Shown here: positions 1 to 20,000 of the stretch, piece by piece | Position numbering within the stretch: position 1 is the stretch's first letter | Layout of the letters: each line of letters starts with the position of its first letter | DNA from: an uncultured virus (IMG/VR IMGVR_UViG_3300029305_012101) | Lineage: Duplodnaviria; Heunggongvirae; Uroviricota; Caudoviricetes | IMG/VR virus record: IMGVR_UViG_3300029305_012101 | DNA: 20,000 nucleotides | Strand: one strand, 5' to 3' | Notes under the pieces: generated by a model | What the model was told of the DNA's origin: nothing | Database searches by the model: none | What the model saw: only the letters and a program-made list of their open reading frames with translations | Made by a program: the position numbers and the translations under genes

Positions 1-1854
1 AAGCTGAAAAGCAGCTATGAGGCTTATTCCGATGCGGCATCGGCTTTGCTGGACGATAAGCAGTATGCGTCCGAGGAGTCCATCAACGCACTTCTGGGTG
101 ACACTGAAGATGCGAAAAATGTGCTGAAAGCATCCAAGGACTATTATGCACAAACCCGGAAGCAGCTGAAGGAAAAAACGACTGAGTTCACCAAGGCTCT
201 GGAAAAGGCGCTGGATGATAACGGAGACGGCAAGATCAACTTCGCGGTTGGCGAGGGCGTCATTTCTCTGGATGAAGAGAAGAGTCTGCAGGAGATCCGC
301 AGCCAAATTTCCAGAATCACCGCCCAGATCGAGCAGGAGCAGTACACGGCCGACATGAACATCATCAAGGCCAAATTCAGCACTGATAACATAAATGTGG
401 AGAGTTTCGGGCTGCTTATGGACGAGTTGGAGTCCACCAACAGCGAAGTTATTTCCAGTTTCTGGGATGAGTTCGGCGCAGCATCCGTTGGTCTGGAGGA
501 AGGCAGCGATGCCTGGAACACGCTGCTGGAAGGTACACTTACTGAGATTGCCAACACCCTGCAGAATGCCGGCGATCTGGGCATGGATAAGCTGCAATCC
601 AGATGGGCAAAGGATCTTGGCATCCTTGGCCATGATCTCTCTGACATTCTGGCGAACAATACCGGCCCCGAAATCACGGCGGCCGCGGAAAATCTGAGCA
701 AGGAAACCAGGGCATCCATCGACGCGATGCTGGATCACATGGCGCCGACCACAGAGCAGATCCAGGAAGTGGTGGAGGCATACCGAAACGCCGGGCTGGA
801 GGATAAAATCCCGGAGGCTTTGCTGAGCTATCTGAATACCACGGAATTCTACGAAGCGCTGTCAGCAGGACCGAAGGCTGTGGAGAATTTCTTCCGAACC
901 TTAGAGATTGACATCGAGCCGAAGGGCTTCAATTATGACGCCTCTTTTGAAGAGTGGCAGCTAAACGCCCCTCTTGGGCAGGTTTTTGAAGTAGAGGCAA
1001 ATGTCAAAACCAACTGGACCTATGACGCATGGGATGATGAGTGGATCGCACCGGATGAGACTATTTCCTTCACTACGGAAGCCATGGTCAAGGCCGGATG
1101 GACATACAATCCGTTTGAGGAACAGTGGATCAGCCCGGGAGAAGCATATACATTCGGCACCAACGGCGAGGTGAATGTATCCTGGCTTGTGGATAAGTTT
1201 GGGGACAAAGTTCTCGCTGATGGTAGCACAAATGCGACCTTTGGTGTGAATTCTTCCTATACAGCCAGCACGACCGTCGATCTGTACACCAAGTATAACG
1301 TGATTCCCAGCCAGAAAAAGGCTTATGACCTTTTGCTGGACGAGGGCTACTATGGAGCACCCGGCGGCCAGGGATACCGGGGCGGCATCTTCGGCGGCGA
1401 CAGCGCCATGGATGCCTTTGCACGGGGCGGCCGGACGGACAACAGCGGCATCGTGGGCGGCAGCACCCGGTTCATCCGGGTGAATGAGGAAAGCCCGGAG
1501 ATGATCATCCCCCTGAGCAGCCAGCGCAGAGACCGGGCCATCGACCTGTGGGAGAAGACCGGAGAACTGCTGGACGTGGATCGATACGCCAGAGGCGGCT
1601 ATGTTGGCCGGCAGATGAGCGAGGGCTTCAGTTTCCGTGCATACGATGCCGATGATGGCGTTGGCGGCCGGGTGGTTCAGGTGGACATGGGCGGCGTGAC
1701 CGTGGAGTTCCATGTGGACGTAAGCGGCGGGCAGAGCGTGGCGGAAGCCATTCAGGCCCAGGCACCCGAGATCGCAGAGATGGTGGCCGGCATTATCAAC
1801 GACGCCATCGGCGCTCAGTTTGAGAACACACCGACGAAGGGAGGCGCCGCCTGA
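1..1854 (+). CDS. Tail tape-measure protein, C-terminal part (5'-truncated by window)
   Basis: Frame is open from base 1; long helical Ala/Glu/Leu-rich region, then the typical TMP C-terminal motif FARGG...GIVGG...VNEESPEMIIPLS...AIDLWEKTGELL; directly upstream of the LysM XkdP-like gene (TGATG overlap). Confidence 0.85.
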   Translation, partial: KLKSSYEAYSDAASALLDDKQYASEESINALLGDTEDAKNVLKASKDYYAQTRKQLKEKTTEFTKALEKALDDNGDGKINFAVGEGVISLDEEKSLQEIRSQISRITAQIEQEQYTADMNIIKAKFSTDNINVESFGLLMDELESTNSEVISSFWDEFGAASVGLEEGSDAWNTLLEGTLTEIANTLQNAGDLGMDKLQSRWAKDLGILGHDLSDILANNTGPEITAAAENLSKETRASIDAMLDHMAPTTEQIQEVVEAYRNAGLEDKIPEALLSYLNTTEFYEALSAGPKAVENFFRTLEIDIEPKGFNYDASFEEWQLNAPLGQVFEVEANVKTNWTYDAWDDEWIAPDETISFTTEAMVKAGWTYNPFEEQWISPGEAYTFGTNGEVNVSWLVDKFGDKVLADGSTNATFGVNSSYTASTTVDLYTKYNVIPSQKKAYDLLLDEGYYGAPGGQGYRGGIFGGDSAMDAFARGGRTDNSGIVGGSTRFIRVNEESPEMIIPLSSQRRDRAIDLWEKTGELLDVDRYARGGYVGRQMSEGFSFRAYDADDGVGGRVVQVDMGGVTVEFHVDVSGGQSVAEAIQAQAPEIAEMVAGIINDAIGAQFENTPTKGGAA

Positions 1855-14879: not shown

Positions 14880-15644
14880 ATGACAGAACAGCAGCTTAGA
14901 CAGAAAGTAGTATCTATTATGGAGGGCTGGCTGGGATGTAAGGAGTCCGATGGGAGCCATCGGAAGATCATTGATACATACAACGCCCACACGCCCCGGG
15001 CCCGCGGCTACAAGGTGACATACACCGACGCATGGTGCGCCACGGCCGTCTCCGCCGCCTTCATCAAGGCGGATATGGTGGACATCGGGCCGGCAGAGTG
15101 CAGCTGCAGCAAGATGATCGATCTGTACAAGAAGAAGGGTCGGTGGCAGGAACACGATGGTTACAAGCCGCAGGCCGGCGACGTGATCTTCTACGACTGG
15201 GACGACCTGGGCGTCGGGGAATGCACCGGAGCGCCGGAGCACGTCGGCATCGTTGCCTCCGTGAGCGGCAGCACCATGAAGATCATCGAGGGCAACCTGA
15301 GCAACGCGGTGGGCTACCGCAATCTGGCCATCAACGGCCGATTCATCCGGGGCTACGGCCTGCCGGACTACGCCAGCAAGGTGATCGCCCCCAACAACCC
15401 CGCTGCCAAGGCGGACCCCGCACGATCCTTCGAGCGCGCCTACGCCAAGACCTACACGGTGACGGCATCCGCGCTCAACCTACGCATGGGCGCCAGCACC
15501 AAGAAGAGCATCATCAAAGCCCTCCCCAACGGCAGCAAAGTGACATGCTACGGCTACTACACCAAGACCGGAGAGACCACATGGCTGTTGGTGAAGGACA
15601 GCACCGGAACCGTCGGGTTCTGCTCAAAGAAATATCTGAAGTAA
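14880..15644 (+). CDS. Endolysin: CHAP domain + C-terminal SH3b cell-wall-binding domain
   Basis: Catalytic AWCATAVS, PQAGDVIFYDW, HVGIV, IEGN, IRGYGLP; C-terminal VTASALNLRMGAST...IIKALPNGSKV...W...GFCSKKYL. Confidence 0.9.
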   Translation: MTEQQLRQKVVSIMEGWLGCKESDGSHRKIIDTYNAHTPRARGYKVTYTDAWCATAVSAAFIKADMVDIGPAECSCSKMIDLYKKKGRWQEHDGYKPQAGDVIFYDWDDLGVGECTGAPEHVGIVASVSGSTMKIIEGNLSNAVGYRNLAINGRFIRGYGLPDYASKVIAPNNPAAKADPARSFERAYAKTYTVTASALNLRMGASTKKSIIKALPNGSKVTCYGYYTKTGETTWLLVKDSTGTVGFCSKKYLK

Positions 15645-15646
15645 TA

Positions 15647-15678
15647 AAAACGCCCCGGGCTCAGGCCTGGGGCGTTTT
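15647..15678. terminator. Bidirectional intrinsic terminator
   Basis: AAAACGCCCCGGGC-TCAG-GCCTGGGGCGTTTT between the convergent endolysin and HTH genes; overlaps the HTH stop codon. Confidence 0.8.
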
Positions 15679-15885
15679 GTCGTCTTCGGGGATGTATTCA
15701 AAAATGTCTCCGGGCTGGCAGTTGAGGGCGGCGCAGATCTTATTCATGTCTTCTATTTTGATCCGCAATGTTTTTCCCATGTTCATGGCGGACAGCGTTG
15801 GCTGCCGGATGCCGGTGATGCTGACCAGCTCCTTCTGGGTGACGCCCTTCTCTTTGAGCAGGGCTTTCAGCTTAATCTTTATCAT
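15661..15885 (-). CDS. Cro/C1-type (XRE, HTH_26-like) transcriptional repressor
   Basis: MIKIKLKALLKEKGVTQKELVSITGIRQPTLSAM...KICAALNCQPGDIFEY; RBS AGGAGGT on minus strand at 15893-15899. Confidence 0.9.
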   Translation of the reverse strand: MIKIKLKALLKEKGVTQKELVSITGIRQPTLSAMNMGKTLRIKIEDMNKICAALNCQPGDIFEYIPEDDKTPQA

Positions 15886-15909
15886 AGCAAATACCTCCTG
15901 TTGGTTGGG

Positions 15910-15938
15910 ATTATACTACCGCTGCCGTATTTTGTCAA
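15910..15938 (-). promoter_or_regulatory. Consensus sigma70/sigmaA promoter for the HTH repressor
   Basis: Minus strand TTGACA (15938-15933) - 17 bp - TATAAT (15915-15910); the spacer carries operator ACTAC-N7-GTATT. Confidence 0.85.
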
Positions 15939-15970
15939 CATGGATCTGCACCATGGTGAGGCGTAAATTT

Positions 15971-15987
15971 ACTACGGTAAAAGTAGT
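15971..15987. promoter_or_regulatory. Palindromic operator ACTAC-N7-GTAGT (one of three copies)
   Basis: ACTACGGTAAAAGTAGT; other copies at 16003-16019 (ACTACGCTAGGAGTAGT) and 15915-15931 (ACTACCGCTGCCGTATT). Confidence 0.75.
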
Positions 15988-15995
15988 TTTATCTA

Positions 15996-16027
15996 TTGAC
16001 AAACTACGCTAGGAGTAGTATTATAAT
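15996..16027 (+). promoter_or_regulatory. sigma70/sigmaA promoter for the accessory operon, operator in spacer
   Basis: TTGACA (15996-16001) - 17 bp - TATTAT (16019-16024), with overlapping TATAAT at 16022-16027. Confidence 0.8.
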
Positions 16028-16033
16028 AGTGCA

Positions 16034-16185
16034 GGGAGGAGTTGATCTCCCAGCCGCCCGCCTGCCGGGGCGTAGAGTCCGGCAGGGGCCAACCTCCCGG
16101 GCCGACACGGAGAGCGGCCGCCTGACAAGGGCTGGAACGGTTTACGGAGGAGCGATCCTCACGACGATATATGGGAGGAATTGAT
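16034..16185 (+). ncRNA. Candidate structured 5' leader RNA
   Basis: Multiple stems (16061-68/16079-86; 16100-04/16115-19; enclosing 16050-55/16130-35; GAGGA-GCGA-TCCTC GNRA hairpin 16147-60) between promoter and RBS; no family recognised. Confidence 0.45.
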
Positions 16186-16186
16186 T

Positions 16187-17323
16187 ATGACTAACAGTAT
16201 CAAGTTTTTCTGGAACGGCATTCGTGTCAACGGTGAAAAGAGCCTGATCAAGGTGAGCTACAGCCTGGACAACCACCGGGATCACGCTGAGTGCGTGACC
16301 ATCTACGCCGATGGCTACGGCAGCCGGCTGCCCCGGGACGTCTTCGAGGTCCACAATGAGACCGACCTCTACACCGACTACTTCGAAAACGACAGAGCGG
16401 TTCTGACTCCCGCCCATCCCCTTTACAAGTACGCCCGGTATGCTGCGGTGAAGGCCAAGATCCACGACCTGAAGGGCTACATCAAGTACAAAACGTATTA
16501 TATGGAGAAAAATCCTCAGATGGCCGCCAGATACAATTATGCTGACGAGATCAACCGCAGCATGAAGGAGCTGGCTGAGCTGGAAGCCATCAAAAATCCC
16601 GGCCATCCCACTGCCGAGGATCTGGCTGAGATCGCCCGGGTCCGCATGGAGGCTGAGAACGCCCGGATTGCTGCCGAGCATGAGGCTGAGCTGAAGGCCC
16701 GCGAGGAGCGCCAGCGGAAGCAGAATGAGGGCCGCCGCTTCATCGAGAAGGTTGCCCAGGAGCACCCGATCTGCGAGGGTGAGCCCGTCGTGACCATCAA
16801 CTGGAGCGAGCATCCCGCCTTCTACAGCTGGGAGGATGGCGAACTGAAGCTGTCTGTGGCCGCTGCTGAGATCATCCTGACCCACTTTGACAAGGAAGTC
16901 CACGCGGATGGGGACCGCGGCTACGACAAGACCTCTTTCACCATCGAGTTTGTGAACGAGGACGGCGAGCAGGACACCTACGAGGGGCGCTATGATCTGG
17001 GCGACAACGATGGCGGCATGATCGAGCACATCCGCGCCTGGGGCCGTTTCCTCCTTGAAAAAGGCAGCTACGGCAACGGCAAGCCCACCGAGGACGACAT
17101 CGAGACCGGCCGGGCGATCATCCGTTTCGCCGACTTCCTGGCCCGTCACGCCGATGTGGACTCCATGAGCGACGAGGATCTGATGGTGGAGGTGCTGAAG
17201 ATCAGCCCGAACGACATCACGAGGAGACCTCTGGCTGAGTTTTACATCACGGTTCTGTCCCGCCGGGACATCCGGCTGGCCAGGGAGGCATACAGAATGT
17301 GGAAGAAGGAGGCGCTGGCATGA
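16187..17323 (+). CDS. Multidomain accessory protein with LPD25-like (large polyvalent protein-associated) domain
   Basis: ATG 16187 after GGGAGG; PVVTINWSEHP...GYDKTSFTIEF...TYEGRYDLGDNDGGMIEHIR resembles LPD25; central coiled coil; N-terminal domain unknown. Confidence 0.65.
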   Translation: MTNSIKFFWNGIRVNGEKSLIKVSYSLDNHRDHAECVTIYADGYGSRLPRDVFEVHNETDLYTDYFENDRAVLTPAHPLYKYARYAAVKAKIHDLKGYIKYKTYYMEKNPQMAARYNYADEINRSMKELAELEAIKNPGHPTAEDLAEIARVRMEAENARIAAEHEAELKAREERQRKQNEGRRFIEKVAQEHPICEGEPVVTINWSEHPAFYSWEDGELKLSVAAAEIILTHFDKEVHADGDRGYDKTSFTIEFVNEDGEQDTYEGRYDLGDNDGGMIEHIRAWGRFLLEKGSYGNGKPTEDDIETGRAIIRFADFLARHADVDSMSDEDLMVEVLKISPNDITRRPLAEFYITVLSRRDIRLAREAYRMWKKEALA

Positions 17324-18404: not shown

Positions 18405-19154
18405 ATGGCGAAAAGAGTGCAAGAAACAGCCCGCCCGTTTACGAAGAAGATCCTGTCTCTGACCGGGCGGTTCCCGATCTGGGAGATCTGGTCCGACTTC
18501 ATCTATATGACGGCCGTGGCCATTTCCAACGCCGTGGATCCGTCCCACTTCGAGGTCAGGGAGAAGGAATACCTGAAGATCATCGGGAAATACAATGAGA
18601 AGGAGCGCATGGTATTTCCTGAGTTGCTGGGAGAGCTGGTGATGGCCCTGGAGAAGAACCAGGAGCAGGACTTCCTGGGCAGCGTGTACATGGAGCTGGA
18701 GCTGGGAAACCACTGGATCGGCCAGTTCTTCACGCCCTACAGCGTCTGTCAGCTGATGGCTGATGTCACAAGCGAGGACGCAGCCGAGCAGATCCGGGAG
18801 AAGGGCTTCATCACCATCAACGACTGCGCCTGCGGAGCCGGTGCCACGCTGATCGCCGGCATCCACAGCATCCGCAGGATCCTGGAGAAGGAGGGCCTGA
18901 ACTGGCAGGATCACCTGCTGGTGACGGCCCAGGATCTGGACATGGTGACGGGTCTGATGTGCTACATCCAGATGTCCCTCCAGGGGGCCGCCGGATATGT
19001 TAAGATCGGGAATACAATAACGGATCCCATGAATTCAGGGGACAGCCTGGAGAACTACTGGTTTACCCCGGTGTACTTTTCTCAGACCTGGGCGCTGCGG
19101 CGCCTGTTCTATGGTGCCAGCGCTGAGAAAAACAACCTCCGCCAGCCGGCTTAA
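18405..19154 (+). CDS. Short N6-adenine DNA methyltransferase-like protein (HsdM-like SAM-binding half)
   Basis: DFLGSVYMEL, GQFFTPYSVCQLMA, INDCACGAGATLIA (motif I), AQDLD, GNTI; no NPPY/F motif; AAGGAGG RBS. Confidence 0.75.
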   Translation: MAKRVQETARPFTKKILSLTGRFPIWEIWSDFIYMTAVAISNAVDPSHFEVREKEYLKIIGKYNEKERMVFPELLGELVMALEKNQEQDFLGSVYMELELGNHWIGQFFTPYSVCQLMADVTSEDAAEQIREKGFITINDCACGAGATLIAGIHSIRRILEKEGLNWQDHLLVTAQDLDMVTGLMCYIQMSLQGAAGYVKIGNTITDPMNSGDSLENYWFTPVYFSQTWALRRLFYGASAEKNNLRQPA

Positions 19155-19164
19155 ATACGAAAAT

Positions 19165-19193
19165 GCCTCTGCCGATCACGGCAGGGGCTTTTT
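19165..19193 (+). terminator. Intrinsic terminator of accessory operon
   Basis: GCCTCTGCCG-ATCA-CGGCAGGGGC-TTTTT just after the MTase-like stop. Confidence 0.85.
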
Positions 19194-19295
19194 GCTGCGC
19201 TCCGCTTTGCCTCCCGGCGCCTGCTGGAAGATCGCGGCCGGGTAATGGTGGAGGACCACCCCGGAGAAGTGGCCCTCAGAGGGGCTTAAAATGGC

Positions 19296-19328
19296 AAATA
19301 ATAAGGGGGAGCATTTTCGCTCCCCCTC
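19296..19328 (-). terminator. Intrinsic terminator for the small minus-strand gene
   Basis: AGGGGGAGC-ATTTTC-GCTCCCCCT stem followed on the minus strand by TATTATTT; lies just downstream of the 19336 stop. Confidence 0.7.
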
Positions 19329-19335
19329 TTCTTGA

Positions 19336-19494
19336 CTATTGGTTTAATCTTTCATAAAATTCTTCTTTGGAGATCATCCCCAGGCAGTACATTTCAACGA
19401 TCAGATCGATGTAGACTGTCTTTCTCTCCAGGTACTCCTCCTCAGTAATCTCACCATCCAAGTACATCCTCTCAATACGTCCGACTGTCATCAT
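19336..19494 (-). CDS. 52-aa double SHOCT-like protein (absent from ORF track)
   Basis: MMTVGRIERMYLDGEITEEEYLERKTVYIDLIVEMYCLGMISKEEFYERLNQ*; RBS AAGGAG upstream and a terminator downstream. Confidence 0.75.
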   Translation of the reverse strand: MMTVGRIERMYLDGEITEEEYLERKTVYIDLIVEMYCLGMISKEEFYERLNQ

Positions 19495-19534
19495 GGTATC
19501 GCTCCTTCCGTTGATTTGTGGGGCCGCGCCGGTA

Positions 19535-19576
19535 TGGAGATCTTAGTGATGTGTGTGAGCTGACCTACTGCCTCCA
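19535..19576. other. Putative prophage attachment junction (attR)
   Basis: M32 homology starts at the GAG (Glu) codon 19557; imperfect inverted repeat TGGAG-N4-TAG...CTA-N4-CTCCA centred on 19555/19556. Confidence 0.6.
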
Positions 19577-20000
19577 CGTCATGGTGCGCTATGAGATCGA
19601 AAAGCAGCTCATCGGCGGCACGCTGGAGGTGAAGGACGTTCCCGCGGAGTGGAACCGGCTGTACAAGGAGTATCTGGGCGTGGATGTGCCCGACGACAAG
19701 CACGGCTGCCTGCAGGACAGCCACTGGTCCGGCGGCTCCTTCGGCTACTTCCCCTCCTACGCGCTGGGCAGCGCCTATGCCGCCCAGATGCTGCGGAACA
19801 TGGAGGAAGAGGTGGACGTGTGGAACGACGCCGGCAGAGGCGATCTGACCAACATCTCCTCCTGGCTGTGGGTGAAGGTCCACCGCCACGGCGGCCTGAT
19901 GGAGCCTGCCGATGTGGTGAAAAATGCCTGCGGCGAGTTCGATCCCACGGTCTACACCGACTATCTGGAGTGGAAGTACCGCAAGCTGTACGATCTGTAA
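19557..20000 (+). pseudogene. 3' fragment of M32 (Taq-type) carboxypeptidase gene, interrupted by the prophage
   Basis: ELTYCLHVMVRYEIEK...W...YKEYLG...GCLQDSHWSGGSFGYFPSYALG..YAAQ are M32 motifs; expected upstream IR.EAD and HEXXH are missing, in-frame TGA at 19512; stop TAA at 19998-20000. Confidence 0.88.

What the first reader, a model, noticed from the sequence alone, without database searches (positions are those of the whole stretch)
16030..16186. Structured ~155-nt leader with a duplicated Shine-Dalgarno and an internal anti-SD: candidate novel RNA switch
Seen: the leader begins GGGAGGAGTTGAT (16034-46) and ends GGGAGGAATTGAT (16173-85, the real RBS), a 12/13 direct repeat. CCTCCC (16093-98) can pair with either copy, and the 5' copy can alternatively pair with CTCCC (16047-51). 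Between them lie a multibranch fold (CCAGCC/GGCTGG enclosing CCTGCCGG/CCGGCAGG and GGCCG/CGGCC) and a GNRA-capped hairpin. Inference: mutually exclusive pairings forming a translational switch or an uncharacterised phage ncRNA; alternatively a small insertion with target duplication.
Basis: partly seen in the sequence, partly recalled or inferred. Interest (0 to 1): 0.7.

Follow-up and report, generated by a model that had tools for sequence, protein, structure and literature searches.

The report
Double-pseudoknot leader RNA of gut prophages
The untranslated leader in front of this prophage gene contains a conserved RNA fold absent from Rfam, two small pseudoknots in a row, that travels with a strong repressible promoter in front of many unrelated accessory genes of phages of gut Clostridia; what it does is still unknown.

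Summary
The 12/13 direct repeat turned up in 10 of 1000 dinucleotide shuffles.

The core of the leader (16056-16114) belongs to a conserved RNA family with no Rfam match. I found it in IMG/VR phage contigs, Dulem virus 34, 21 genomes titled Oscillospiraceae, Acutalibacter or other Clostridia, and 72 of 80 metagenome loci.

In 35 of 40 instances the motif lies at a fixed distance behind a sigma70-type promoter. It precedes at least eight unrelated first genes.

The 5' Shine-Dalgarno-like copy corresponds to a purine-rich 5' element shared by the family. CCTCCC is the 5' arm of the second pseudoknot. Its pairing with the real ribosome-binding site dominates the window's predicted ensemble (P 0.98), but occurs in only 1 of 31 family leaders.

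My best guess is a portable, gene-independent 5' leader that stabilises or boosts the transcript (about 0.4). The rivals are a sensor switch and a put-like antiterminator. No RNA data were available.

The parts
15661..15885 (-). Divergently transcribed small Xre/Cro-type regulator gene (74 aa, P0001); presumed repressor of the cassette promoter
   Evidence: Pfam HTH_26 E 2.6e-19; PHROG transcriptional repressor families
15910..15938 (-). Sigma70-type promoter of the regulator gene (TTGACA-17-TATAAT, 12/12)
15971..15987 (.). Operator-like palindrome ACTAC-N7-GTAGT, copy 1
   Evidence: 2 matches in the window; 0 of 200 shuffles give 2. Also, D1
16003..16019 (.). Operator-like palindrome ACTAC-N7-GTAGT, copy 2, between -35 and -10 of the + promoter
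   Evidence: Family members carry other palindromes at the same place
15996..16024 (+). Sigma70-type promoter of the leader (TTGACA-17-TATTAT, 11/12); inferred transcript start about 16031
   Evidence: A relative's contig swaps the promoter exactly at 16030 (loose end in X9)
16034..16046 (+). 5' Shine-Dalgarno-like element with no usable start codon behind it. Family counterpart AGAAAGAGGGAA. In the window it can also form a small 5' hairpin, 16034-38 with 16047-51
   Evidence: Duplex energy with a recalled 16S 3' end is -19.0 kcal/mol here; family median -10.3 against -3.4 for background
16056..16086 (+). Pseudoknot 1. S1 is GCCC 16056-59 with GGGC 16068-71. S2 is CCUGCCG 16061-67 with CGGCAGG 16080-86. 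The conserved loop is GUAGAGUC 16072-79
   Evidence: S1 pairs 14-28 (CG 47, GC 5) and 15-27 (CG 38, UG 7, GC 3, AU 2, UA 1). 6 of 7 S2 pairs change on both sides
16087..16114 (+). Pseudoknot 2. S1' is GGCC 16087-90 with GGCC 16100-03. Linker AA 16091-92. S2' is CUCCCG 16094-99 with CGGAGAG 16108-14 (A16111 bulged). Loop GACA 16104-07
   Evidence: Pair 48-66: GC 29, AU 24, GU 2. Pair 57-75: UA 36, CG 6, GU 2, AU 1. Pair 58-74: CG 11, GC 5, AU 2, unpaired 37
16093..16098 (+). CCUCCC: the 5' arm of S2' and, in this window only, a perfect anti-SD
   Evidence: The family has CCUUAC in 29 of the 31 leaders
16115..16172 (+). Window-specific spacer, with a possible closing helix GGCUGG 16130-35 to CCAGCC 16050-55 and a GCGA-capped hairpin 16147-60
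   Evidence: Not conserved in the family alignment
16173..16189 (+). Real ribosome-binding site GGGAGG plus ATG 16187. Homologous to the family's AUAUAUGGGAGGUAAUCA...AUG
16187..17323 (+). First cargo gene (378 aa, P0002) with an LPD25 domain. Followed by two ORFs of unknown family and an N6_Mtase-like ORF (18405-19154), then a terminator at 19165-88

Best explanation
Identity (about 0.9). Positions 16056-16114 are one member of a conserved cis-acting RNA motif with no Rfam match. The motif is built from two consecutive H-type pseudoknots. It forms part of a portable expression module: a small divergent repressor gene, a strong operator-bearing sigma70 promoter, a purine-rich Shine-Dalgarno-like 5' end, the double pseudoknot about 20-25 nt after the inferred start, a variable spacer, and the RBS. 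Prophages of Oscillospiraceae, Acutalibacteraceae and other gut Clostridia place this module in front of unrelated accessory genes.

Mechanism (inferred, about 0.4). The leader acts in cis and independently of the gene that follows it, as a 5' stabiliser or expression booster. The 5' SD-like tract would bind a 30S subunit, as STAB-SD does. The compact pseudoknots just behind it would give a nuclease-resistant 5' end, for example against RNase J-type 5'-to-3' decay. Whatever cargo follows would then be expressed strongly once the repressor releases the promoter.

In this window the lineage-specific change CCUUAC to CCUCCC adds a possible translational gate. If pseudoknot 2 is not folded, CCUCCC can sequester the real RBS.

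Shown: conservation, covariation, promoter linkage, diversity of cargo genes. Inferred: transcription start, simultaneous formation of both helices of each pseudoknot, and any effect on stability or translation.
For: - Family membership. Homologous cores occur in Dulem virus 34. They make up 7 of 18 and 20 of 21 IMG/VR pattern hits. They make up 21 of 50 GTDB-genome pattern hits, all in records titled Oscillospiraceae, Oscillibacter, Dysosmobacter, Acutalibacter, Ructibacterium, Clostridia, Clostridiales, 'Clostridiaceae bacterium' or, in one case, only 'Bacterium 210917-SL.2.15'. The covariance model hits 72 of 80 returned metagenome loci at E <= 0.001.
- Structure. On 55 distinct sequences, 91.9% of cells pair against 77.6% in shuffles (0 of 500 reach it). 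11 of 22 pairs change on both sides. Slid controls give 37-47% paired. Helices S1 and S1' were not in the model used for alignment, so their covariation is independent of the model: GCCC/GGGC changes to GCGA/UCGC, GCGG/CCGC and GCCU/AGGC, and GGCC/GGCC changes to AGCC/GGCU.
- Promoter linkage. 35 of 40 distinct instances have a promoter scoring at least 9/12 whose -10 ends 56-64 nt before the GGCCAAC core. In the metagenome set 39 of 59 do, and 36 of those lie at 56-60 nt.
- Gene independence. At least eight unrelated first genes follow the motif, mostly with no Pfam, PHROG or PADLOC family. Homologues of the window's LPD25 gene elsewhere lack the leader. One genome has two modules 1.3 kb apart. 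A relative carries the same leader behind a different promoter, joined at 16030.
- 5' SD-like tract. 21 of 35 leaders score <= -8 kcal/mol against the 16S 3' end, compared with 9.5% of 619 background windows. No start codon follows at a usable distance.
- Precedent. A 5' SD-like stabiliser acting against RNase J1 is described in PMC4113751 (passages read).
- No conserved SD-sequestering platform or terminator follows the motif in the main group.
Against: - No RNA data exist for this locus, so the start site and stability are untested.
- The high conservation of loop and linker nucleotides (GUAGAGUU, AA, GACA, bulged A) fits a specific ligand- or protein-binding site as well as it fits a nuclease-resistant fold.
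- A sub-group (L009, L012, L014, L020, L138, L140, L162, L174) lacks the consensus promoter and sits between two terminator-like hairpins. A pure 5' stabiliser does not predict that layout.
- In some members the GGG of the 5' tract is GCG or GCA and the duplex energy is only -5.6 kcal/mol.
- G-U pairs (24 cells) are no more frequent than A-C mismatches (39 cells) in the proposed helices, so wobble pairs do not confirm the strand.
- Many sequences are closely related, and the search patterns fixed part of the conserved columns.
- ViennaRNA cannot score pseudoknots. Each pseudoknot's two helices could be alternatives rather than simultaneous.
Confidence: 0.4

Rival explanations
1. Sensor switch. 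The double pseudoknot is an aptamer for a small molecule or for a phage or host protein. Folding of pseudoknot 2 locks CCUCCC into S2' and leaves the RBS free. When the pseudoknot is unfolded, CCUCCC pairs with GGGAGG and blocks translation. Other members would use other expression platforms.
For: - In the window, P(SD pairs with CCUCCCG) is 0.98. The states lie 1.7-4.2 kcal/mol apart. The family fold forms first when only 16031-16140 is folded. Locking the motif raises SD accessibility from 0.01 to 0.52.
- Unpaired nucleotides are strongly conserved.
- The stand-alone sub-group has a terminator about 40 nt after the motif, the layout of a transcriptional riboswitch.
- Expression platforms differ among members of known riboswitch classes (general knowledge).
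Against: - SD-to-motif pairing occurs in 1 of 31 leaders.
- Locking the motif frees the SD in 3 of 31 leaders, against 10 of 31 for a control block.
- A near relative has CCUCAC (16097 C>A) with no compensating change.
- The cargo genes are unrelated to one another and to any metabolic pathway.
- There is no match to any Rfam riboswitch class.
Confidence: 0.25
2. Put-like element. The nascent double pseudoknot binds the RNA polymerase that made it and suppresses pausing or termination across the cassette, as putL and putR do behind the early promoters of phage HK022.
For: - The distance behind an early-type promoter is short and fixed.
- The RNA is about 60-75 nt and bipartite, and more than one copy can occur per element.
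- The stand-alone sub-group has a strong terminator between the motif and the next gene.
- putRNA is about 70 nt, consists of two stem-loops with a triplex, and putL lies just downstream of PL (PMC9378689, passages read).
- A cis-acting antiterminator RNA exists in the Gram-positive element Tn916 (PMC11658703, abstract and passages read).
Against: - No + strand terminator-like site lies between 16187 and the weak one at 19056 near the cassette end; the strong one follows at 19165.
- Tandem cassettes each end in a strong terminator and restart with their own promoter and motif. That layout argues against routine read-through.
- There is no sequence or fold similarity to put, which has plain stem-loops. 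canT needs at least 341 nt.
Confidence: 0.15
3. Trans-acting RNA. The motif would be an RNA antitoxin of type III toxin-antitoxin style, or a small RNA or decoy released from the leader, that neutralises the downstream protein or titrates a factor.
For: - Type III antitoxin RNAs are pseudoknotted units upstream of their toxin gene, with a terminator in between (general knowledge). RCd22/AbiF in a C. difficile prophage is one such precedent (PMC12373285, abstract read).
- The stand-alone sub-group lies between terminators.
Against: - At least eight unrelated downstream proteins follow the motif, and none matches ToxN, AbiF or any PADLOC family.
- The two pseudoknots are not sequence repeats.
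- There is no match to Rfam's abiF motif or to any other Rfam family.
Confidence: 0.07
4. Not an RNA element at all: a small insertion with a 13-bp target duplication, a small protein-coding ORF (15996-16184, 62 codons), or chance.
For: - The 12/13 direct repeat flanks the GC-rich core.
- An open frame spans the leader.
- Dulem virus 34 annotates an 81-aa CDS over the homologous region.
- One distant member has an SD and ATG opening a 33-codon frame through the motif.
Against: - Both repeat copies align with family elements, the 5' SD-like tract and the RBS.
- No contig in 4 runs skips the interval, and the provirus record holds a single copy.
- No frame is open in all sequences: the best is 46 of 55. 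6 of 55 have loop-length differences of 2 or 3 nt. No start codon follows the 5' SD-like tract.
- Compensatory changes in four helices argue for selection on base pairing.
Confidence: 0.03

Closest known systems
HK022 putL/putR RNA (processive antiterminator; PMC9378689)
   Same: A bipartite structured RNA of about 70 nt, made just behind phage early promoters, acting in cis. More than one copy can occur per element. Both use tertiary pairing: a triplex in put, pseudoknots here.
   Different: put consists of two plain stem-loops from a proteobacterial phage. No sequence likeness is evident. No internal terminators need overriding in this cassette. Antitermination was not tested.
STAB-SD of Bacillus thuringiensis cry3A (PMC4113751, citing Agaisse and Lereclus 1996)
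   Same: A Shine-Dalgarno-like sequence at the 5' end of a long leader in a Gram-positive host that starts no ORF. In cry3A it binds a 30S subunit and blocks RNase J1.
   Different: Here it is followed by a conserved double pseudoknot, and in some members the tract is weak (-5.6 kcal/mol). Stabilisation was not tested.
Small H-type pseudoknot riboswitches (preQ1-I/II, SAM-II/V, guanidine-III; named from my own knowledge)
   Same: Compact H-type pseudoknots in 5' leaders with conserved loop nucleotides. In the window, one helix strand doubles as an anti-SD.
   Different: There is no match to any Rfam model at E <= 10. Two different pseudoknots lie in tandem. The gene context is not metabolic. 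No conserved expression platform was found.
Exoribonuclease-resistant RNAs (xrRNA) of flaviviruses and plant viruses (from my own knowledge)
   Same: Pseudoknotted folds that protect the RNA downstream of them from 5'-to-3' exonucleolytic decay. This is the mechanism proposed here.
   Different: They occur in eukaryotic viruses and block Xrn1, with a ring-like three-way-junction fold. Nothing comparable has been shown for RNase J in bacteria. This is purely an analogy.
Portable promoter-plus-pseudoknot modules noted earlier in this scan (e1-5343783, sieB/sas type; e1-2096209)
   Same: Short promoter-leader modules with an RNA pseudoknot, shared between mobile elements and fused to unrelated small genes.
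   Different: They come from other hosts (enterobacterial P2-like prophages; CPR bacteria) and have other sequences and orientation logic. They were not compared at sequence level here.

Membership tests
Any Rfam 15 family | Covariance-model score at or above the family's gathering threshold | tested here: not met
   The whole window gave 0 matches at gathering. 15850-16350 gave 0 matches at E <= 10. Ten family loci gave only sub-threshold noise (15-22 bits against thresholds of 54-100), none on the motif.
H-type pseudoknot riboswitch classes | A ligand-binding aptamer coupled to an expression platform (SD sequestration or terminator) | tested here: inconclusive
   Coupling is predicted in the window, but in only 1 of 31 leaders for pairing and 3 of 31 for accessibility. 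Ligand binding cannot be tested with these tools.
HK022 put-type antiterminator RNA | Located just downstream of an early promoter | tested here: met
   35 of 40 instances and 39 of 59 have a consensus-like promoter, mostly 56-60 nt before the core.
HK022 put-type antiterminator RNA | Two stem-loops of about 70 nt in all; makes RNA polymerase resistant to terminators | not testable with these tools
   The fold here is two pseudoknots. Read-through needs an experiment. No terminator-like site lies inside the window's cassette before the weak one at 19056 near its end.
STAB-SD-type 5' stabiliser | An SD-like sequence near the 5' end, complementary to the 16S 3' end, that does not start an ORF | tested here: met
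   window -19.0 kcal/mol; family median -10.3 against -3.4 for background; 21 of 35 score <= -8. The 16S tail used was recalled from memory. No start codon lies at a usable distance.
STAB-SD-type 5' stabiliser | Increases mRNA half-life by blocking RNase J1 | not testable with these tools
   No RNA run holds the locus.
Type III toxin-antitoxin RNA antitoxin | Tandem near-identical RNA repeats upstream of a cognate toxin family (ToxN, CptN, AbiF) | tested here: not met
   The two units differ in sequence. The downstream proteins are unrelated to one another and have no such Pfam or PADLOC family.
Small protein-coding ORF / leader peptide | One frame open and started in all members | tested here: not met
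   The best frame is open in 46 of 55. 4 of 55 have no open frame. 6 of 55 have loop-length differences of 2 or 3 nt.
Transposable insertion with target-site duplication | Empty sites in relatives, multiple copies, terminal inverted repeats | tested here: not met
   No contig skips the interval in 4 runs. There is one copy in the 41-kb provirus record. The repeat copies align with functional family elements.

The most novel reading that the evidence does not exclude
The double pseudoknot is a new aptamer class. It would sense a small molecule or nucleotide signal, for instance one that reports the host's physiological or defence state, or a dedicated protein. On that signal it would gate the expression of prophage accessory cassettes. 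Different members would use different read-outs: RBS sequestration in this window, and a terminator in the stand-alone sub-group.
Probability: 0.2. Interest if true: 0.85.

Novelty: new variant of a known kind. Interest (0 to 1): 0.65.

Why it matters
Structured leader RNAs of phages outside the enterobacterial models are almost unexplored. This one has strong comparative support. It has an unusual architecture of two different H-type pseudoknots back to back, and it is tied to a portable, repressor-controlled promoter that drives many uncharacterised accessory genes in abundant gut Clostridia.

If it stabilises transcripts, it would be a compact expression part for Gram-positive anaerobes and a bacterial counterpart of viral exonuclease-resistant RNAs. 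If it senses a ligand or a protein, it would be a new regulatory RNA class that controls what prophages express in the gut.

Either way, the covariance model gives a way to find these cassettes and their unannotated cargo genes.

Tried and rejected
- First structural model. A three-way junction in which CCC (A1 columns 13-15) pairs with GGG after helix P3. I rejected it after divergent members showed CGA or CGG at those columns, which instead covary with the hairpin loop.
- Closing helix P0 (A2 columns 9-11 with 95-97). It pairs in 39-46 of 55 sequences with no compensatory change. I left it open.
- Family-wide coupling of the SD to the motif. Not found.
- Using G-U wobble pairs to fix the strand. 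Uninformative: 24 G-U cells against 39 A-C cells.
- Expression data. No RNA holder is listed for 15600-16700. The one read-laying run therefore used DNA contigs only.
- The window's own assembly is not held. Only the 41-kb provirus record G001 could be searched.
- Loci of two homologues of the LPD25 protein (L003, L004). They lack the leader.
- tRNA/tmRNA scan. None found.
- Literature. Full-text searches for two core strings in DNA and RNA spelling found nothing relevant. Topical searches listed the Weinberg 2010 and 2017 motif surveys, which I did not open, on the assumption from my own knowledge that Rfam holds their motifs, and a 2026 preprint whose phage RNA is a different system. Supplementary tables of large motif surveys were not searched, so prior listing there cannot be excluded.
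- Earlier findings of this scan, searched by sequence and by place. None.
- Cargo-gene function. No Pfam, PHROG or PADLOC family for most.

Full report
**What is in the window**

The finding lies in a prophage accessory region.
- Tail-fibre-like and holin-like ORFs and a CHAP/SH3 endolysin (14880-15644, +) come first.
- A small Xre/HTH_26 regulator gene follows on the minus strand (15661-15885).
- A 300-bp divergent control region comes next, and then a + strand cassette.
- The cassette holds an LPD25-domain protein (16187-17323), two ORFs of unknown family and an N6_Mtase-like ORF.
- It ends at a strong terminator at 19165-88, just before the 3' part of a host M32 carboxypeptidase gene.
- The window matches an IMG/VR provirus record.
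- The control region holds two near-perfect divergent sigma70-type promoters and two operator-like palindromes, ACTAC-N7-GTAGT. One of them lies between the -35 and -10 of the + promoter.
- The + promoter puts the transcript start at about 16031, so 16031-16186 is a plausible leader of about 155 nt. This is an inference, because no RNA data could be found.

**Checking the observation**

The 12/13 direct repeat is moderately unusual, appearing in 10 of 1000 dinucleotide shuffles. The folding energy of the leader alone is not unusual (z = -1.40; reverse strand z = -1.17). The window by itself does not prove a structured RNA. Rfam gives nothing, either at gathering thresholds or at E <= 10.

**Homologues**

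A BLAST search of phage records found one partial match, in Dulem virus 34. It also lies directly behind a promoter and in front of an unrelated gene, and it is annotated there as an 81-aa hypothetical protein.

Pattern scans built from the shared core then recovered the element widely.

| Collection | Pattern hits that are true family members |
|---|---|
| IMG/VR, first pattern | 7 of 18 |
| IMG/VR, second pattern | 20 of 21 |
| GTDB genomes | 21 of 50 |
| Metagenome contigs | 116 stretches matched and 80 were returned; the covariance model hits 72 of the 80 at E <= 0.001 |

- Twenty of the 21 GTDB records are titled Oscillospiraceae, Oscillibacter, Dysosmobacter, Acutalibacter, Ructibacterium or unnamed Clostridia; one is titled only 'Bacterium 210917-SL.2.15'. 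The other 29 GTDB hits are chance matches inside coding regions of unrelated genomes.
- A covariance model (R1) finds one strong copy in each of five phage records (CheckV 90-100% for the four IMG/VR records; the Dulem virus 34 record is titled complete). It finds two copies 1.3 kb apart in one Oscillibacter-type genome. It hits 4 of 151 sampled genomes of that family.
- Loci encoding homologues of the window's LPD25 protein do not have the leader. The RNA therefore goes with the promoter, not with the gene.

**Structure**

RNAalifold recovered the long hairpin with compensatory changes at 6 of 7 pairs. My first three-way-junction model did not survive the more divergent metagenome members.

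Those members show that the four nucleotides 5' of the hairpin covary with four nucleotides inside the hairpin loop: GCCC/GGGC becomes GCGA/UCGC, GCGG/CCGC or GCCU/AGGC. In the same way, RGCC just 3' of the hairpin covaries with GGCY inside the loop of the next helix (G-C 29, A-U 24, G-U 2).

Each half therefore has the strand order of an H-type pseudoknot: S1a, a linker of 1-2 nt, S2a, S1b, a loop, S2b.
- Counted on 55 distinct sequences, the four helices pair in 91.9% of cells against 77.6% in column shuffles. 0 of 500 shuffles reach the observed value. Slid controls give 37-47%.
- 11 of 22 pairs change on both sides.
- S1 and S1' were not part of the model that produced the alignment, so their signal is not circular.
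- In window coordinates:
  - Pseudoknot 1: S1 16056-59 / 16068-71 and S2 16061-67 / 16080-86.
  - Pseudoknot 2: S1' 16087-90 / 16100-03 and S2' 16094-99 / 16108-14 with A16111 bulged.

Caveats:
- The search patterns fixed some columns, and many sequences are close relatives.
- The fourth S1' pair fails in 14 of 55 sequences, and pair 58-74 is A-A in most.
- G-U pairs are not enriched over A-C mismatches.
- Simultaneous formation of both helices of each pseudoknot is inferred from loop lengths, not shown.

- CCTCCC (16093-98) is the 5' arm of S2'. The family has CCUUAC in 29 of the 31 leaders analysed.
- The 5' copy of the Shine-Dalgarno sequence sits where the family has a purine-rich tract, typically AGAAAGAGGGAA, at the very 5' end. 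That tract is complementary to the 16S 3' end (recalled sequence). The median duplex energy is -10.3 kcal/mol against -3.4 for background windows, and 21 of 35 leaders score <= -8 against 9.5% of 619 background windows. No start codon follows it.
- The 3' copy is the family's real RBS. The 'duplicated SD' is therefore real and has a family-wide counterpart, but it is not a target-site duplication.
- The SD / anti-SD pairing is strong in the window: P 0.98. The sequestered state is -67.2 kcal/mol, against -65.5 with S2' forced and -63.0 with the RBS free. The family fold forms first when only 16031-16140 is folded.
- That pairing is seen in 1 of 31 family leaders. Locking the motif frees the RBS in 3 of 31 leaders, against 10 of 31 for a control block.
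- DNA contigs of near relatives carry 16097 C>A inside the anti-SD (one run). Two runs carry 16048 T>C, which breaks the small GGGAG/CTCCC hairpin. One relative has the same leader joined to a different promoter exactly at 16030. None skips the leader.

**Context and likely function**

- In 35 of 40 distinct instances, a promoter scoring at least 9/12 ends 56-64 nt before the GGCCAAC core. In the metagenome set 39 of 59 do so, mostly at 57-58 nt.
- The spacer between the promoter hexamers carries a palindrome that differs between sub-groups.
- A small divergent regulator gene lies upstream. It matches HTH_26 in the window and in L090. In others it is a 65-96-aa protein with at best sub-threshold ribbon-helix-helix-type hits (three of the five scanned).
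- The first downstream genes fall into at least eight unrelated groups, nearly all without Pfam, PHROG or PADLOC families.
- Cassettes end in terminators and can be repeated in tandem.

This is the profile of a portable promoter-operator-leader module that serves whatever cargo is placed behind it. The main group has no conserved expression platform.

I therefore favour a gene-independent role at the 5' end of the mRNA, at about 0.4. In this model the 5' SD-like tract recruits a 30S subunit, as in the STAB-SD stabiliser of cry3A, which blocks RNase J1 (PMC4113751, passages read). The compact pseudoknots add a nuclease-resistant block.

The rivals remain open:
- A ligand- or protein-binding sensor (0.25). 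The very conserved loops, the window's RBS sequestration and the terminator behind the stand-alone sub-group all favour it.
- A put-like RNA acting on RNA polymerase (0.15; PMC9378689 and PMC11658703, passages read). The promoter-proximal position favours it. The lack of internal terminators and the terminator-then-promoter layout of tandem cassettes argue against it.
- A trans-acting or antitoxin RNA (0.07; PMC12373285, abstract read).
- Coding, insertion or chance explanations (about 0.03).

**Novelty**

- No Rfam 15 family matches the window or ten family members.
- Full-text searches for the core strings found nothing relevant.
- Topical searches listed the large motif surveys, which I did not open; I assume from my own knowledge that Rfam holds their motifs.
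- Supplementary lists of large candidate-RNA surveys were not searched.
- Two earlier notes of this scan describe other portable promoter-plus-pseudoknot leaders in other hosts. They are conceptual parallels that I did not test.

I class this as a new variant of a known kind: a new class of structured phage leader RNA. Comparative support for the fold is strong. The mechanism is undetermined.

Noticed in passing
window 15971-15987 and 16003-16019: Two exact ACTAC-N7-GTAGT palindromes 32 bp apart in the divergent promoter region. The second lies inside the + promoter spacer. They are probably operators of the adjacent Xre regulator. Family members have different palindromes at the same position.
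   Followed up: partly
window 19518-20000 (and 19190-19500): The ORF at the window's end matches only positions 347-489 of the 489-position M32 carboxypeptidase profile. The prophage may have integrated into or next to this host gene, with the attachment site just after the cassette terminator at 19165-88.
   Followed up: no
L001 2865-3110 (Dulem virus 34, PP511788.1, XCD07413.1): An 81-aa 'hypothetical protein' is annotated across the promoter and the RNA motif. This is probably a false gene call.
   Followed up: partly
L103 about 1500-1620 (minus strand; genome handle G114): In one distant member (39.5 bits), a 33-codon frame with a good SD and ATG runs through the motif. The shared peptide-like string with the window's frame reflects nucleotide conservation.
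   Followed up: partly
L115, L118, L129, L160 (metagenome loci), upstream of the motif: Divergent members lack the sigma70 consensus promoter. They share a box, CACCTTGAAAA-N-T-NN-ATA, 5-85 nt upstream. It may be the promoter of another sigma factor. In L090 the gene behind the motif itself has a sub-threshold Sigma70_r2 match (E 4.3e-05, 23.7 bits against a cut-off of 24).
   Followed up: no
L101 (genome handle G002, contig 7, 360263-361679): Two complete promoter-operator-motif cassettes lie 1.3 kb apart on the same strand. They share the same operator palindrome, and each ends in a strong terminator.
   Followed up: partly
L009, L012, L014, L020, L138, L140, L162, L174: A stand-alone sub-group. 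The motif sits directly after one terminator-like hairpin and about 40 nt before a strong terminator, ahead of a Bro-N-like ORF (judged by eye) or an unannotated 218-223-aa ORF. A weak promoter with another SD-like 5' tract may lie about 75 nt upstream.
   Followed up: partly
alignment A2 columns 22-42: A recurrent A-C mismatch occurs at one position of the long helix in stems of the GGAA/UCCC, GGAC/GCCC and GGAG/CCCC types. It may be a conserved A+-C wobble.
   Followed up: no
window 16055-16064 and 16115-16124: A second, window-specific direct repeat (CGCCCGCCTG / CGGCCGCCTG, 60 nt apart). It suggests internal duplication during the remodelling of this leader.
   Followed up: no
window 16455-16586: Relatives in three runs replace 130 nt inside the LPD25 gene with 115 other letters (joints table). 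This is a variable segment of the cargo protein.
   Followed up: no
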